Shown one piece after another: positions 1,085 to 8,603 of a stretch of 9,491 nt of DNA. Both the position numbers and the translations under genes were made by a program. Under the pieces are notes generated by a model. That model made no database searches. It was not told the origin of the DNA and saw only the letters and a program-made list of their open reading frames with translations. How positions within the stretch are numbered: the stretch's first letter is position 1; each line of letters begins with the position of its first letter. This DNA is from a virus. Taxonomy: Duplodnaviria; Heunggongvirae; Uroviricota; Caudoviricetes. Location of the stretch: IMG/VR virus record IMGVR_UViG_2619619129_000006, one strand, 5' to 3'.

Positions 1085-1107
1085 GTGGCCCTCATCGGGC
1101 CACTTTT
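1085..1107 (+). terminator. Rho-independent terminator downstream of flxA
   Basis: GTGGCCC (1085-1091) / loop TCATC / GGGCCAC (1097-1103) followed by TTTT (1104-1107), 15 nt after the flxA stop. Confidence 0.6.
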
Positions 1108-1299: not shown

Positions 1300-2950
1300 C
1301 CAACTTCCGCTTCTTGCTCTTAGCGGACATTAGCATAGGCTATTTACCATAACGCCTCATTACGCGCACCGCCCAGACTGACTCAGCGCGTTTCTGGCAT
1401 ATCCCCGGTAAAACAAGTAACAAACCACCCGAAAATGAACACCAGAAACGCGACTTAAGAATCTACCCTATGAATGGATATGCACTCAACCGAATCGATC
1501 TTGGTTTCAATCTTTTTTATCGGGATCAGGCTTCTTTTTAGGTAACTTCGGGGGCTTAACTTGCTGATGACTTTGCGTTCGGCGCGTAAGCCAGGGATGG
1601 TCAGCTTTAGGTTTAACATAGTATTTTGAGCGTAAATCAATACGGGCATTATCCACTCGTTCATGGACACTCTTTTCATCATCCAGTGGTATAGGCTCCG
1701 GGCCATCAACATACTTTTCCCAGCCCAGCGCTTTCCCGTCATACAGAACGTTAATTTCACCGTCAAAGTTCTCGCATACAGTAACAACCGAATGCCTAAG
1801 TCGATATCCCCGGCCCTCACTGCGTACCTGAAACGCACTGCTTTTGTACTGGAAAGTGAGATTTTTAGACAGAACGCGCTTCGCCTGTAGGCTGAAGATA
1901 TAACCCAGTTCCTCTTCAGAATGGTGCACATCAAGATGAGCATTATCAGTAGTACGAGGCGACGTAGCGAACCGGTTGTTATAGGCTTCAATAAAGGTCG
2001 GCAACCATGCATTTGCTGTTTCAATATCACTGATATTCTGAAGCCGCATTTCTTTGACCAGCCTGTCCTGTAGTGTCTGATTGGCGCGCTCTACCCGCCC
2101 TTTTGCCTGCGGGCTGTTGGCATGGATTGGCTCGATGCCCAGTGTCTTTATCGCACGAGTGAACTGGGTCAGCTCACCTTCCCGCTCTGGGTTATTTACC
2201 CTGAATATACTGTGTCTATCAGAGTAGAGAGCGAGCGGTACGCCATGATCATTAAGGTAACCCCGGAGGGTTTCCATGTAAGCCCGGGTTGTTTCAGCAG
2301 GCACAAAACGCAACGCCATCAACGCACTGGTGGCATCATCAATGAAAACGATCAGTGTACATCTGGGGCCTCGATTTTCAAACCAGTCATGAGGTGAGCC
2401 ATCAATCTGGATCAGTTCACCGTAAGATGGTCGTCGCATGCGGCGTTGATATATACGGGCAATTTTACGACGGCGTTCACGCCATACCCCCCTCTTCTAT
2501 CATCCACTTTCTGAGAGTTTCAACGGATAAAGATAAACCGTGTATCTCGCGCAATTTTTCGCACGCAAACGTAGGTCCAAAATCAGCGTAACGGCCTTTG
2601 AGGAGTGAAATTACTGTTGCTCTGAATTCAGTAGAAAAGGAATTATTAGGACGCTTTCCACGTCGGTGGGAAACCAGACCAGAAGGCCCTTCATTTCTAT
2701 ACCGTTGCACCAGACGTTTAACCTGCCGAATAGAAATGCCAATGCGTGCCGCAGCTTGTTCCTGAGTAATATGTCGATTAATTGACTCCTGAATAATCTG
2801 AAGTCGGTGGAGTTCCTTATGACTCATCGTAACAGTTTCTTTGGTCATGAAAAATCCCCCAGAGAATTGTCTGGGGACATTTTAGAATGGTTCAAAGGGG
2901 ACATTACAGCTTGGTGTTAACAATAGCCTGCTTCTCCTTGCCTTTCGGCA
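1300..2950 (-). mobile_element. Insertion-sequence-like unit around the frameshifted DDE transposase; ends NOT determined
   Basis: A transposase gene flanked by non-coding DNA between flxA and the prophage early genes. I could not identify convincing terminal inverted repeats or a target-site duplication by eye; the coordinates are only a bracket. Confidence 0.35.
1507..2848 (-). pseudogene. IS481/ISNCY-like DDE transposase (N-terminal HTH + integrase-core domain), split by a frameshift in a G6 homopolymer
   Basis: Track ORFs 2477-2848 (123 aa, HTH-like: ...AARIGISIRQVKRLVQRY...) and 1507-2439 (310 aa, integrase core: IQIDGS...VFIDDAT...YSDRHSIF...SPQAKGRVER) are on the same strand in different frames. 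Hand translation shows the second frame is open back to a TAG at 2497-2499, just upstream of the run CCCCCC at 2487-2492 (+ coords). Removing one G would fuse them into one ~446-aa protein (...WMIEEGVWRERRRKIARIYQRRMRRPSYGELIQIDG...). Family assignment is by motif pattern only. Confidence 0.7.
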
Positions 2951-3182
2951 CGTAAGAGGCTAACCTACATGTGTCTGGCATGAAATTGGCCTCAGATTAA
3001 TGTTAAGCGTCTTGCAGGACGCGTAATGTTAACTGGGGCTTTTCTCTACCTGCCGTTGGTGTTCGTGCCCGAGGCAGATAGCCTCAAGCACCCGCAGTCA
3101 TTCTACTTAACTAAGATTTCCCCGCAAACCGTTTTTGTCCAGCACAGTAAATATCCAACTAAACCAATGGAGTTCGCTGTAT

Positions 3183-3362: not shown

Positions 3363-3616
3363 TATTCCTCCTACAATCAATGTGCAATTACATTTAAACA
3401 CACCTCAATTTGGCCGGACATATAAATATCTAAACCAGAAAAAATCACTTACATAGCGTTACAAACTCTTTAGTCTAAAGGTTCATCGTAAAACATTCCC
3501 CATACTTATCAGTCCGTTCCGCGCCAGGTAGCTCATTGCCTTATCTGGCAACCTGTAATCAGGTTTCCGCTTTTTCAGTTGGCTGGTCGTTTAACCGACA
3601 TAGTTAACCCATTAAT

Positions 3617-3904
3617 CTAGTTGCCGGATGTTGGTGGATTTTCGCGTTTTAGTTGTTCATAAAAGTGCACAGCTTTAACCAATTCTTCTGATGTAACCGG
3701 GACTGGTGAGGCAGTGAATAAGGCCTGAATTTGATAGTTCGGCCTGTCGTTACAATCCTCTTTTTTCGGTACATATTTCCAGTCACCAGACCACTACTTC
3801 CCCTGAAAGTCCGTAACGCCTTTTTTCACGTAGCGATATCGCCATGTCACTGGTTTTGCTTCCCCCGCCGTTTCATGCCCTTCCTGATAATTAATCTCGC
3901 TCAT
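3617..3904 (-). pseudogene. Short nin-like ORF interrupted by an in-frame TAG (36 codons, TAG, 58 further open codons)
   Basis: ATG 3904-3902 overlaps the upstream frame's TGA (ATGA). MSEINYQEGHETAGEAKPVTWRYRYVKKGVTDFQGK, TAG at 3796-3794, then the same frame continues WSGDWKYVPKKEDCNDRPNYQIQALFTASPVPVTSEELVKAVHFYEQLKRENPPTSGN to TAG 3619-3617. Confidence 0.3.
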
Positions 3905-4092
3905 TCATCGCCCCACTCATCACAATATGCTTCGACCGGAGTTTTTCCCGCTTCATAGTCATCACGCTAGGATTCGACATCAGCAGCACTTCCACCGCGT
4001 AACTCACCATAGTCCATTAATAGTTCATCCCGCTCTTCAAAACTGATGTTATATTTAGCTGAACAAAAATCAGCCACTTTGTTCTTCCTCAT
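3901..4092 (-). pseudogene. Short nin-like ORF interrupted by an in-frame TAG (41 codons, TAG, 21 further open codons)
   Basis: ATG 4092-4090: MRKNKVADFCSAKYNISFEERDELLMDYGELRGGSAADVES, TAG at 3969-3967, then the same frame continues RDDYEAGKTPVEAYCDEWGDE to TGA 3903-3901, which overlaps the next ORF's ATG. Confidence 0.3.
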
Positions 4093-4141
4093 CGTCTTTT
4101 ATTTCGTGGTATGAGTAATTGCAGTAGTTAAAGAAAATTTC

Positions 4142-4252
4142 TTATGCTCCGTCATGAATTTCATCAGGTGTTGCGTCATCGTCCACTTCGAATACATCCT
4201 CAAAATCTCCACCAGCTATTCCCGTTTCAATAATAATTTTGAACTTTCGCAT
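4142..4252 (-). CDS. Hypothetical small acidic protein (36 aa)
   Basis: ATG 4252-4250 to TAA 4144-4142: MRKFKIIIETGIAGGDFEDVFEVDDDATPDEIHDGA. An AGGAGG lies 23 nt upstream, separated from the ATG by a GNRA-loop hairpin. Too short to call confidently. Confidence 0.3.
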   Translation of the reverse strand: MRKFKIIIETGIAGGDFEDVFEVDDDATPDEIHDGA

Positions 4253-4514
4253 TTCACTACCGCCCTTTCGGGCGGCCTCCTGATGTTCTGAGGGTGCAGA
4301 AATCCATCCGGTTAAGGATTAAGTTTTATTTACAGAACTGAATTTAATTATTCAGATATACGTATCTGTAACCTTACGAATCTACTCACTGGATGCCTCT
4401 TTCATAAAAATAATCCAGTGGGTTTTATCGTTTTTTCCCTGTTCGTTGACAGATAACAGGCTTTCTATCTGTCAGTGCCAGAATCTGGCTTACCGGTATT
4501 TGCGTTTCATTCCA

Positions 4515-4871
4515 TTAAAAAATCAGAACGCCGTGCGGCCTCAACACCCGAAAAGCTTCTTTAAATCTCTGTCGCAAATCATCACGCCAGGCATCTTTAT
4601 TCAGCCGTCCATATTTCTTTCCCATCCAGGCGTTATCACCAACACGCTCAAGATGCGGAGGGTCTAATACAACCATCGAAAAAGATGCGTCTGCAAATGA
4701 TAATGCACGAAAATCTGCGATAATGTCAGGGCTGATAATCAAGCGTCTCCCATTGCGTAATGTGTATCCTTCTTTTCTGATATCGCTAAATATCGCCCGT
4801 TCGTCAGACTTATCGAACCAGAACATGCGGCTGCCACAGCACACATCAAGAATGGTTGCCGGTGCACTCAC
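4515..4871 (-). CDS. SAM-dependent methyltransferase-like protein (motif I-like DVCCGSR, motif IV-like DPPH), probably C-terminally truncated
   Basis: Track ORF, 118 aa; GTG start 4871-4869 overlaps the upstream gene's TGA (GTGA). After the TAA at 4517-4515 the same frame stays open for 29 more codons (WNETQIPVSQILALTDRKPVICQRTGKKR), suggesting a nonsense mutation. Gene order O-like / ~140 aa / methyltransferase resembles what I recall of yfdO-yfdN-yfdM in K-12 prophage CPS-53 (unverified). Confidence 0.55.
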   Translation of the reverse strand: MSAPATILDVCCGSRMFWFDKSDERAIFSDIRKEGYTLRNGRRLIISPDIIADFRALSFADASFSMVVLDPPHLERVGDNAWMGKKYGRLNKDAWRDDLRQRFKEAFRVLRPHGVLIF

Positions 4872-8376: not shown

Positions 8377-8434
8377 TTTCTGGTGACGTTTGGCGGTATC
8401 AGTTTTACTCCGTGACTGCTCTGCCGCCCTTTTT
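8377..8434 (+). ncRNA. dicF: DicF small RNA (antisense regulator of ftsZ), including 3' U-tract
   Basis: TTTCTGGTGACGTTTGGCGGTATCAGTTTTACTCCGTGACTGCTCTGCCGCCC followed by TTTTT matches my memory of the 53-nt DicF sequence; position between ydfC and dicB matches K-12. Confidence 0.85.
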
Positions 8435-8603
8435 AAAGTGAATTTTGTGATGTGGTGAATGCGGCTGAGCGCACGCGGAACAGTTAAAACCAAAAACAGT
8501 GTTATGGGTGGATTCTCTGTATCCGGCGTTAATTGTTAACTGGTTAACGTCACCTGGAGGCACCAGGCACCGCATCACAAAACTCATTGTTGAGGGCGCG
8601 ATA

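What the first reader, a model, noticed from the sequence alone, without database searches (positions are those of the whole stretch)
4250..4281. Shine-Dalgarno, stable GNRA hairpin, start codon arrangement upstream of a small ORF
On the - strand the mRNA reads AGGAGG-CCGCCC-GAAA-GGGCGG-UAGUGAA-AUG. A perfect SD sits 23 nt from the AUG, but the intervening 16 nt form a 6-bp GC stem with a GAAA tetraloop that would bring SD and AUG to normal effective spacing when folded. Similar SD-hairpin-AUG structures are known for some T4 genes. There is no U-tract after the hairpin, so it is not an intrinsic terminator.
Basis: inference. Interest (0 to 1): 0.4.

Follow-up and report, generated by a model that had tools for sequence, protein, structure and literature searches.

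The report
Portable Shine-Dalgarno–hairpin–start cassette in prophages
The hairpin between a perfect ribosome-binding sequence and the start codon is real; it is a roughly 26-base cassette found in lambdoid prophages of about half of E. coli genomes, placed in front of at least six unrelated small genes and at the points where gene modules have been swapped, but in this window the gene behind it is dead and its role in translation is inferred, not shown.

Summary
On the - strand the sequence reads AGGAGG (4281-4276), CCGCCC-GAAA-GGGCGG (4275-4260), UAGUGAA (4259-4253), AUG (4252-4250). The hairpin is very stable and there is no U-tract after it.

The window is a Qin-type cryptic prophage of E. 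coli. The ORF behind the hairpin is a DUF7167 pseudogene with an internal stop.

- The unit TC-AGGAGG-hairpin-UA sits in front of at least six unrelated ORF families, always 6-11 nt before the start codon.
- A 70-nt stretch containing it occurs in 2604 of 5426 complete E. coli genomes.
- Mosaic breakpoints fall inside it. Two phage contigs carry two copies each, with the downstream gene modules swapped.
- Homologues of two of these gene families that lack the hairpin have an ordinary SD at about the same spacing as remains here once the hairpin is folded (6-7 nt).

The best reading is a split translation initiation region of the T4 gene 38/25 type, which also serves as a recombination joint.

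Weak points:
- Covariation is not significant.
- 15% of intact DUF7167 copies have a stem mismatch.
- No expression data exist.

Moderate interest.

The parts
4276..4281 (-). Shine-Dalgarno sequence AGGAGG. The last G can pair with U4259.
   Evidence: One search gives the sequence. The duplex with the 16S 3' end is -9.2 to -10.3 kcal/mol. GGAG is invariant across 29 cassette haplotypes.
4260..4275 (-). Hairpin CCGCCC-GAAA-GGGCGG: six G-C pairs and a GAAA tetraloop.
   Evidence: -12.4 kcal/mol, pairing probability about 1.0. It is conserved in 237 fetched copies, 92% of them with all six pairs intact.
4253..4259 (-). A/U-rich 7-nt spacer UAGUGAA, predicted to be mostly unpaired. It contains stop codons in two frames.
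   Evidence: Spacers of the other gene families are 6-11 nt.
4250..4252 (-). AUG start codon of the DUF7167 gene.
   Evidence: RefSeq start. All homologues start MR[KR]F. There is an in-frame TAA directly upstream in the ArgO145-type copies.
4070..4252 (-). DUF7167 (PF23768, phrog_1997) pseudogene. There is an internal TAA at 4144-4142. Intact copies are 57-60 aa.
4258..4322 (-). Conserved intergenic block of about 65 nt (AAUCCUUAACCGGAGGGAUUYCUGCACCCUCARAWCAUC + SD + hairpin + UA). Sequences on both sides of it are variable.
   Evidence: Per-site diversity profile of 77 loci: low from -43 to +24 relative to the SD, and 0.3-0.6 outside. The 70-nt query is present in 2604 of 5426 complete E. 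coli genomes.
4290..4309 (-). Degenerate upstream hairpin (canonical GGAGGG-N9-CCCUC, here GGAUGG). In the canonical form it ties up the CCCUC that can otherwise pair with the SD. The G>U change here also creates an AUG (4307-4305) opening a 16-codon uORF that ends at the UAG just after the GC hairpin.
   Evidence: This is a prediction only.
4382..4826 (-). Upstream gene of the operon: a SAM-dependent methyltransferase pseudogene. A 129-nt intergenic region follows it.
   Evidence: RefSeq annotation of the identical IAI1 region.

Best explanation
The feature is one copy of a short, portable translation-initiation cassette of Escherichia lambdoid prophages. It consists of a strong SD (AGGAGG), directly followed by a very stable 6-bp G-C hairpin, then 6-11 unpaired A/U-rich nucleotides and the start codon.

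Proposed mechanism (inferred): the hairpin forms as the mRNA is made and is looped out of the ribosomal mRNA path. The SD, 23 nt away in the linear sequence, then lies at an effective distance of about 7 nt from the AUG, and the 30S subunit initiates normally. This is the arrangement shown for T4 genes 38 and 25. Locking nucleotides -8 to -23 into a self-contained hairpin would also stop that stretch from pairing with whatever coding sequence lies downstream. That would suit a start signal that serves many different genes.

Because the same roughly 26-nt unit (65 nt in the commonest context) heads many unrelated accessory genes, it also acts as a patch of homology at which gene modules are exchanged. 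The coincidence of breakpoints with the cassette is shown.

In this window the cassette is a relic. It heads a DUF7167 pseudogene in a Qin-type cryptic prophage.
For: Shown:
- Exact anatomy, and a hairpin that folds with probability about 1 in all contexts.
- The window is 100% identical to the Qin-type prophage of E. coli IAI1, and the AUG is the annotated start.
- The exact 22-mer was found in at least 120 IMG/VR contigs.
- The cassette precedes DUF7167 (7-nt spacer), DUF4014 (6), MTELTK/MAELTK proteins (8-9, ATG or GTG), MQEIKE (9), MLTLK (8) and a Q-like antiterminator (11, with its own GGAG).
- The upstream context also varies. In ArgO145-type phages homology starts at TC|AGGAGG, 4 nt after another gene's stop.
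- Contigs L015 and L115 each carry two cassettes about 1.06 kb apart, with the DUF7167 and DUF4014 modules in swapped order. The BLAST segments end inside the cassette.
- Diversity rises sharply at -43 and +24.
- Hairpin-less relatives use an ordinary SD at the same spacing. Klebsiella DUF7167 has GGAGG + 7 nt + AUG. Citrobacter, Yersinia and other DUF7167 copies have 5-7 nt. 19 of 80 DUF4014 loci lack the hairpin, most with AAGGAG + 6 nt + GUG/AUG, and 61 of 80 have the cassette + 6 nt.
- The commonest stem variants are C>U changes in the 5' arm that keep a U-G pair in the sense RNA only (47 sequences), against 8 sequences with the mirror G>A change in the 3' arm. There is one compensatory A-U pair.
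- There is precedent for the mechanism.
Against: - No expression, ribosome-profiling or mutational data were available.
- Covariation is not significant: the observed score is reached by 388 of 500 shuffles, and only one pair changes on both sides. The copies are too closely related to be informative.
- The hairpin is no more conserved than the adjacent 40 nt of intergenic sequence.
- 16 of 105 intact DUF7167 copies have at least one stem mismatch, while 0 of 24 pseudogene copies do. This is the opposite of what strict dependence predicts, although lineage effects are likely.
- In the main context the SD is predicted to be partly paired with an upstream CCCUC.
- One family behind the cassette, the Q-like protein, has its own proximal GGAG.
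- The 3' arm GGGCGGU would itself be a weak SD (-6.7 kcal/mol) if the hairpin melted.
Confidence: 0.55

Rival explanations
1. The cassette is conserved only as a recombination linker, or through recent common descent. On this view the hairpin is neutral or mildly inhibitory for translation. Initiation relies on the A/U-rich leader, or on occasional melting that exposes GGGCGGU as a weak SD.
For: - Breakpoints coincide with the cassette.
- There is no significant covariation.
- The hairpin is no better conserved than the neighbouring intergenic sequence.
- Mismatched stems sit in front of intact ORFs.
- GGGCGGUAG pairs with the anti-SD at -6.7 kcal/mol.
Against: - A linker needs no SD placed exactly at the stem base and no start codon 6-11 nt after it, yet both hold in every gene family.
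- In ArgO145-type contexts just the SD-hairpin unit is retained, which points to a functional core.
- A -12 to -14 kcal/mol hairpin is unlikely to melt, so GGGCGG would rarely be available.
- Hairpin-less homologues keep a strong SD at the same spacing.
Confidence: 0.2
2. The hairpin is an mRNA stability or processing element. It could act as an intercistronic barrier to 3' exonucleases that protects the upstream cistron, or as a structure flanking an RNase E site in the A/U-rich spacer. It would have no role in SD-AUG geometry.
For: - It is a stable G-C hairpin with a tetraloop in an intergenic region of a polycistronic phage operon, with an A/U-rich single strand just 3' of it.
- The general role of intercistronic stem-loops in mRNA stability is established knowledge and was not tested here.
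Against: - In ArgO145-type phages the unit follows directly on a gene's stop codon, and the hairpin always keeps the same register to the SD and the start codon. A stabiliser needs neither.
- Only this one hairpin family was found in 2.1 Mb of related prophage DNA. A general stabiliser would be expected at many junctions.
Confidence: 0.12
3. The hairpin is an RNA operator for a phage protein. It could be a boxB-like site for an N-type antiterminator, or the target of a translational repressor, like the MS2 coat protein or T4 gp43 operators next to an RBS.
For: - A G-C stem with a GAAA loop resembles the lambda boxB GNRA-like fold (own knowledge).
- Some phage contigs carry two cassettes in front of different genes, as a small regulon would.
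Against: - It is not placed just downstream of the early promoters. It is found in both rightward (after the replication genes) and leftward (ArgO145) operon contexts, always at a gene start.
- There is no conserved boxA at a fixed distance in the ArgO145 context.
- The loop varies (GGCA, AAAA, UAAA) in front of intact ORFs.
- No candidate binding protein was identified.
Confidence: 0.06
4. It is an intrinsic transcription terminator or attenuator at the start of the nin-like region (a tR2 analogue), or a chance palindrome.
For: It is a GC-rich hairpin after the replication module. A GC-rich hairpin by itself is not rare in a 9.5-kb window.
Against: - There is no U-tract on either strand, and the terminator scan does not flag it.
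- Identical copies occur in thousands of prophages in a fixed register with the SD and the start codon, which excludes chance.
Confidence: 0.03

Closest known systems
Split (noncontiguous) translation initiation regions of phage T4 genes 38 and 25 (Gold 1988; Nivinskas et al. 1999; Malys & Nivinskas 2009, as reviewed in PMC3014915 and PMC7297116)
   Same: The SD is too far from the AUG in the linear sequence (22 and 27 nt in T4, 23 nt here). A stable local hairpin fills the gap. Folding leaves 5 and 11 nt in T4, and 7 nt here (6-11 across the gene families). The SD and AUG lie outside the stem. In both cases only close relatives have the structure and more distant homologues use an ordinary RBS.
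   Different: The T4 cases are tied to one gene each and were verified by mutagenesis, DMS probing and reporters. Here nothing has been tested experimentally, and one and the same cassette heads at least six unrelated genes and marks recombination breakpoints. The hairpin sequence and loop are unrelated to the T4 ones.
PeSL mobile regulatory cassettes of T4-type phages (Arbiol et al. 2010, PMC2839356; PMC4122927)
   Same: Both are short conserved intergenic motifs containing a stem-loop, repeated in the same orientation in front of small non-essential ORFs. Gene insertions, deletions and replacements have their end points at the motif.
   Different: PeSLs are an early promoter plus a terminator stem-loop, so they are transcription signals. 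This cassette has no promoter-like or terminator-like match and consists of translation signals. Copy number per phage is 1-2 here, not dozens. No mini-circles have been shown.
E. coli thrS and rpmE noncontiguous ribosome binding sites (Sacerdot et al. 1998; Aseev et al. 2020, PMC7297116)
   Same: The ribosome binding site is interrupted by, or adjacent to, a stable hairpin that the 30S subunit tolerates.
   Different: Those hairpins are operators for autogenous repression by the gene product and lie upstream of the SD or split a larger site. No regulator is known here, and the hairpin lies strictly between the SD and the AUG.
Lambda nut boxB hairpin
   Same: A short G-C stem capped by a GNRA-like loop in an early phage transcript.
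   Different: The position, the lack of a fixed boxA partner, the loop variability and the strict register with a start codon all differ. It is not a member.

Membership tests
Split/noncontiguous TIR (T4 gene 38/25 type) | SD-like sequence too far from the start codon in the linear sequence (more than about 15 nt) | tested here: met
   23 nt between AGGAGG and AUG. The distance is 22-27 nt in the other gene families behind the cassette.
Split/noncontiguous TIR (T4 gene 38/25 type) | The intervening sequence forms a stable local hairpin that leaves the SD and AUG outside the stem | tested here: met
   -12.4 to -14.4 kcal/mol, with stem pairing probability about 1.0 in five contexts. The AUG and spacer are mostly unpaired. 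The SD is free in the ArgO145 context but predicted to be partly paired with an upstream CCCUC in the main context.
Split/noncontiguous TIR (T4 gene 38/25 type) | Folded SD-start spacing falls in the functional range (about 5-11 nt) | tested here: met
   7 nt here and 6, 7, 8, 9, 9 and 11 nt in six gene families. This equals the spacing in hairpin-less homologues.
Split/noncontiguous TIR (T4 gene 38/25 type) | No alternative SD at the canonical distance | tested here: met
   The spacers UAGUGAA, UAAGAA, UAAUGAAAA, UAACAAAUA and AACAGAUA have no SD. The exception is the Q-like family, with UGGAGAUAAUA. GGGCGGU in the 3' arm is weak and locked in the stem.
Split/noncontiguous TIR (T4 gene 38/25 type) | Stem-disrupting mutations lower translation and compensatory mutations restore it | not testable with these tools
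   This needs reporter fusions or toeprinting.
Split/noncontiguous TIR (T4 gene 38/25 type) | Phylogenetic conservation of the structure, with covariation | tested here: inconclusive
   Across 29 haplotypes, 92% of cells are paired and 1 pair changes on both sides. The score is reached by 388 of 500 shuffles. U-G wobble variants dominate.
Intrinsic (Rho-independent) terminator | GC-rich hairpin followed directly by a U-tract | tested here: not met
   The sequence after the stem is UAGUGAAAUG on the - strand and CCUCCUGAUG on the + strand. The terminator scan does not list it.
PeSL-type mobile regulatory cassette | A conserved intergenic motif, repeated in the same orientation, at the end points of module replacements | tested here: met
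   There are two copies about 1.06 kb apart in 10 contigs. The DUF7167 and DUF4014 modules are swapped in L015 versus L115, with alignment ends inside the cassette. The diversity profile agrees.
PeSL-type mobile regulatory cassette | The motif is a sigma-70 early promoter plus a terminator stem-loop | tested here: not met
   There is no promoter-like or terminator-like site in 4258-4381 on the - strand. The motif is an SD plus a hairpin plus a start codon.
Lambda-type nut site (boxA + boxB) | boxB hairpin with a GNRA-like loop, a boxA a few nt upstream, located just downstream of pL/pR | tested here: not met
   It lies after the replication and methylase genes here and in a leftward operon in ArgO145. 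The upstream sequence is unrelated between contexts. The loop is GGCA, AAAA or UAAA in some copies.
REP/BIME extragenic palindromes | Hundreds of copies per genome, at the 3' ends of chromosomal genes | tested here: not met
   There are 1-6 places per genome, all in prophage context.
Any Rfam family | A covariance-model match | tested here: not met
   No hit at E <= 1 in 3900-4700. The only hits in the window are sok, DicF and STnc100, elsewhere.

The most novel reading that the evidence does not exclude
A single roughly 26-nt 'plug-and-play' start signal, made of an SD plus a looped-out G-C hairpin, is shared by many unrelated accessory genes of lambdoid prophages in about half of all E. coli genomes. 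It would both guarantee context-independent translation and provide the homology at which these genes are shuffled. This would be a translation-level counterpart of the T4 PeSL cassettes, and evidence for the old 'linker' model of lambdoid mosaicism.
Probability: 0.35. Interest if true: 0.6.

Novelty: new variant of a known kind. Interest (0 to 1): 0.4.

Why it matters
If the hairpin does bring the SD and the AUG together, this would be a widespread natural example of a split ribosome binding site outside the T-even phages, and the first that is portable between genes. It would be useful as a natural insulated RBS. It would also improve gene calling: several database entries extend DUF7167 by 24-33 residues through the hairpin.

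The breakpoint evidence gives a concrete, testable sequence for how small accessory genes are exchanged among lambdoid prophages.

For this window itself the matter is minor. The cassette is a fossil in front of a pseudogene in a cryptic prophage.

Tried and rejected
1. Covariation test on 29 hairpin haplotypes. It was not significant, so it is not used as support.
2. Prediction that broken hairpins should go with dead genes. The opposite was found: 16 of 105 intact copies have a mismatch, against 0 of 24 pseudogene copies. This is reported as evidence against the main explanation.
3. Scan of one genome per species (GTDB) with a DUF7167 alignment. It gave only 2 loci, a Shigella and a probably contaminated Collinsella MAG.
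4. Idea that a uORF running through the hairpin and ending at the conserved UAA/UAG couples translation. A start codon in that frame exists only in the ArgO145-type copies (9 codons) and in this window's lineage (16 codons). Most copies have none. Rejected as a general mechanism.
5. Generic search of 2.1 Mb of fetched prophage DNA for other SD-GC hairpin-start arrangements. Only this cassette family turned up, plus three likely chance hits. These phages therefore do not use the arrangement widely with other hairpins.
6. Rfam at E <= 1 gave nothing at the site.
7. Literature searches for the hairpin sequence and for DUF7167 returned no papers. The Pas sRNA preprint was read and is unrelated.
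8. RNase III site: rejected on established knowledge, because a 6-7 bp stem is far too short.
9. The promoter-like match GTGAAA-16-TATTAT at 4257-4230 is within chance expectation (4 found against 2.6 expected).

Full report
**1. The observation**

On the - strand the window reads ...CAUC-AGGAGG-CCGCCC-GAAA-GGGCGG-UAGUGAA-AUG-CGA.... The coordinates are:
- SD: 4281-4276
- 5' arm: 4275-4270
- loop: 4269-4266
- 3' arm: 4265-4260
- spacer: 4259-4253
- AUG: 4252-4250

The linear distance from the SD to the AUG is 23 nt. With the 16-nt hairpin folded, 7 nt remain.

ViennaRNA gives this hairpin as the only element of the centroid structure of 4300-4230. The isolated hairpin is -12.4 kcal/mol, or -14.4 with the additional G4276-U4259 pair. 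The stem bases are paired with probability about 1.0 when 160-nt contexts are folded.

No U-run follows the hairpin on either strand, and the terminator scan does not list it.

A GC-rich hairpin as such is not rare. There are 3 distinct ones (4 overlapping hits) in the window, against 0.86 +/- 1.1 in shuffles. The case therefore rests on position and conservation, not on the hairpin alone.

**2. Where the window comes from**

The region 3900-4700 is 100% identical to many E. coli chromosomes, for example IAI1. The annotation there shows a Qin-type cryptic prophage. The gene order on the - strand is dicC, ydaT-family, a 321-aa protein, DUF977, a SAM-methyltransferase pseudogene, a 129-nt intergenic region, a DUF7167 pseudogene ('internal stop'), and further pseudogenes. 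On the other side lie dicA, ydfABC and DicF.

The AUG at 4252 is the RefSeq start of the DUF7167 pseudogene. Translation gives MRKFKIIIETGIAGGDFEDVFEVDDDATPDEIHDGA*EIFFNYCNYSYHEIKDDEEEQSG. Intact copies are 57-60 aa and match PF23768 and phrog_1997, both of unknown function.

In this window, then, the cassette heads a dead gene.

**3. The start codon is sound, and the hairpin is not a property of the gene**

All DUF7167 homologues, down to 45% identity, begin MR[KR]F. The ArgO145-type copies have an in-frame UAA immediately before the AUG.

Distant homologues have ordinary ribosome binding sites and no hairpin:
- a Klebsiella phage: GGAGG-CUGAGUG-AUG, 7 nt;
- Citrobacter, Yersinia and metagenomic copies: GGGGGAUUGAG-AUG, GGAGGAUGUG-AUG, GAGGGAGUG-AUG and GAGGGUAAUAUU-GUG.

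**4. The SD-hairpin unit is a portable cassette**

In these contigs, and in loci fetched with flank-anchored patterns, it precedes the following families:

| Downstream family | Spacer | Length |
|---|---|---|
| DUF7167 | UAGUGAA / UAGUUAA / UAAUGAA | 7 nt |
| DUF4014 72-aa membrane protein | UAAGAA / UAAUGA | 6 nt |
| MTELTK / MAELTK proteins (start AUG or GUG) | UAAUGAAAA / UAAUAAAA | 8-9 nt |
| MQ[ED]IKE proteins | UAACAAAUA | 9 nt |
| MLTLK peptide | AACAGAUA | 8 nt |
| Q-like antiterminator, PF06530 (has its own GGAG) | UGGAGAUAAUA | 11 nt |

The sequence upstream also varies. Usually it is a conserved block of about 40 nt (..AAUCCUUAACCGGAGGGAUUYCUGCACCCUCARAWCAUC). In ArgO145-type Stx phages the homology begins at TC|AGGAGG, four bases after the stop codon of an unrelated 70-aa gene.

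A 70-nt query covering the block and the cassette hits 4108 places in 2604 of 5426 complete E. coli genomes, 1-6 per genome, always in unannotated intergenic DNA. Viable, sequenced phages carry the cassette with intact genes.

**5. Mosaic joints**

In 77 loci anchored on the upstream 18-mer, per-site diversity is low from -43 to +24 relative to the SD. It jumps to 0.3-0.6 on both sides.

Ten contigs carry two cassettes about 1.06 kb apart in the same orientation:
- L015: 70-aa gene | cassette | DUF4014 ... block + cassette | DUF7167.
- L115: the same 70-aa gene | cassette | DUF7167 ... block + cassette | DUF4014.

The pairwise BLAST segments of these two contigs end and overlap within the cassette itself. 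The modules behind the two cassettes have therefore been exchanged, with the cassette as the crossover region.

This is the behaviour described for the PeSL cassettes of T4-type phages (PMC2839356). The difference is that the signals here are translational, not a promoter and terminator.

**6. Does the hairpin work as a split RBS?**

For:
- The geometry matches the experimentally established T4 cases: gene 38, 22 nt reduced to 5; gene 25, 27 nt reduced to 11 (PMC3014915; PMC7297116).
- The post-hairpin spacer always lies within 6-11 nt.
- Five of the six families have no other SD.
- Gene families that exist both with and without the cassette keep the same SD strength and the same spacer length. 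For DUF7167 the spacer is 7 nt in both forms. For DUF4014, 61 of 80 loci have the cassette + 6 nt, and most of the other 19 have AAGGAG + 6 nt. The cassette looks like an ordinary RBS with a hairpin inserted between the SD and the spacer.
- The commonest stem variants (CCGUCC, CCGCCU, CCGUCU, CUGCCC) give U-G pairs, which preserve pairing only in the sense-strand RNA. The mirror-image G>A changes in the 3' arm are rarer (47 against 8 sequences).
- One lineage with a G>A mismatch contains a compensated A-U derivative.

Against:
- The formal covariation test is no better than shuffles.
- The counts of variants are not independent events.
- The hairpin is not more conserved than the adjacent intergenic block.
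- 16 of 105 intact DUF7167 copies carry at least one mismatch (stem energy falling to between -4 and -7 kcal/mol), whereas all 24 pseudogene copies have a perfect stem.
- In the main context the SD is predicted to compete for an upstream CCCUC.

I therefore put the split-RBS mechanism at roughly even odds. The descriptive claims, that this is a portable cassette and a mosaic joint, I rate as well supported.

**7. Rivals**

- Pure linker or hitch-hiking: explains the conservation but not the fixed register of SD, stem and start codon.
- mRNA stabiliser: does not need that register either, and only one hairpin family exists in 2.1 Mb of related DNA.
- boxB-like or other protein operator: disfavoured by position, by the variable upstream sequence and by loop variation, with GGCA in 10 copies.
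- Terminator: excluded by the lack of a U-tract.
- RNase III site: excluded on stem length (established knowledge).

**8. Verdict**

The feature is a new variant of a known kind: a split SD-hairpin-AUG initiation region that, unlike the T4 examples, is a shared, mobile cassette at recombination joints of lambdoid prophages.

In this window it is a relic before a pseudogene. No paper in the held library mentions the sequence or DUF7167. Interest is moderate, 0.4.

Noticed in passing
window 2922-3093 (- strand): Strong Rfam match to sok antitoxin RNA (RF01794, 99.8 bits, gathering score 59). It lies in a stretch with no annotated gene in the identical RefSeq region, and no intact hok-like ORF is nearby. 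It may be a decayed or unannotated hok/sok locus, separate from hokD.
   Followed up: partly
window 8378-8429 and 8441-8581 (+ strand): DicF sRNA (76.7 bits) is followed directly by a sub-threshold STnc100-like match (38.4 bits against a gathering score of 47).
   Followed up: no
L038 11415-11490: The exact 22-mer AGGAGGCCGCCCGAAAGGGCGG also lies inside a coding sequence. It is in frame (..AQEAARKGGNE..) near the N-terminus of a 218-aa ORF that I recognised from memory as resembling the P2 gpM terminase small subunit; no family search was run on it. Whether this is convergence, chance, or the source of the cassette is unknown.
   Followed up: partly
window 4257-4307 (- strand); L003 about 595-625: The G>U change in this lineage (GGAGGG to GGAUGG) creates a 16-codon uORF, MDFCTLRTSGGRPKGR, that runs through the hairpin to the UAG at its base. 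ArgO145-type copies have a 9-codon uORF, MSGGRPKGR, whose AUG overlaps the upstream gene's stop (UAAUG). Most copies have no start codon in that frame.
   Followed up: yes
window 4290-4309 and 4276-4281 (- strand): There is a three-element arrangement: GGAGGG, then CCCUC, then the SD AGGAGG. The CCCUC can pair either with the upstream GGAGGG or with the SD. In this window the upstream partner is mutated, and the SD is predicted to be mostly paired (unpaired probability 0.02-0.2 for GAGG). This could be a switch or could be noise.
   Followed up: partly
P0003-P0009 (protein database entries); L128-L132: Gene callers have produced DUF7167 entries extended at the N-terminus (84-93 aa) that read through the hairpin (..SEHQEAARKGGSE-MRKFK..). 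In P0008 the canonical AUG is replaced (..GGSERRKFK), so an upstream start was chosen.
   Followed up: partly
L002 (PP818812.1) and L126 (JAIHTM010000290.1): An 'Actinobacillus phage vB_Apl-pPE4' and a 'Collinsella sp.' MAG contig are 93-98% identical to this E. coli prophage region. The host or bin assignments look doubtful.
   Followed up: no
window 4340-4381 (- strand) and homologous loci: An A/U-rich inverted repeat (CUGAAU-AAUUAA-AUUCAG) overlaps the stop codon of the upstream gene. A second sequence variant (CUGAAGAUUUAAAUCAG) occupies the same place in other prophages. Its function is unknown and it was not flagged as a terminator.
   Followed up: no
window 1085-1103 and 2857-2876: There are two other GC-rich perfect hairpins. 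The first lies just after the flxA stop (1070) and may be its terminator.
   Followed up: no
window 4382-4826 and 3483-4092 (- strand): The genes on both sides of the cassette are also pseudogenes: a SAM-methyltransferase (frameshifted, internal stop), the 58-aa MADFGSTKYN family, and a further hypothetical gene. This whole segment of the prophage is decaying.
   Followed up: partly
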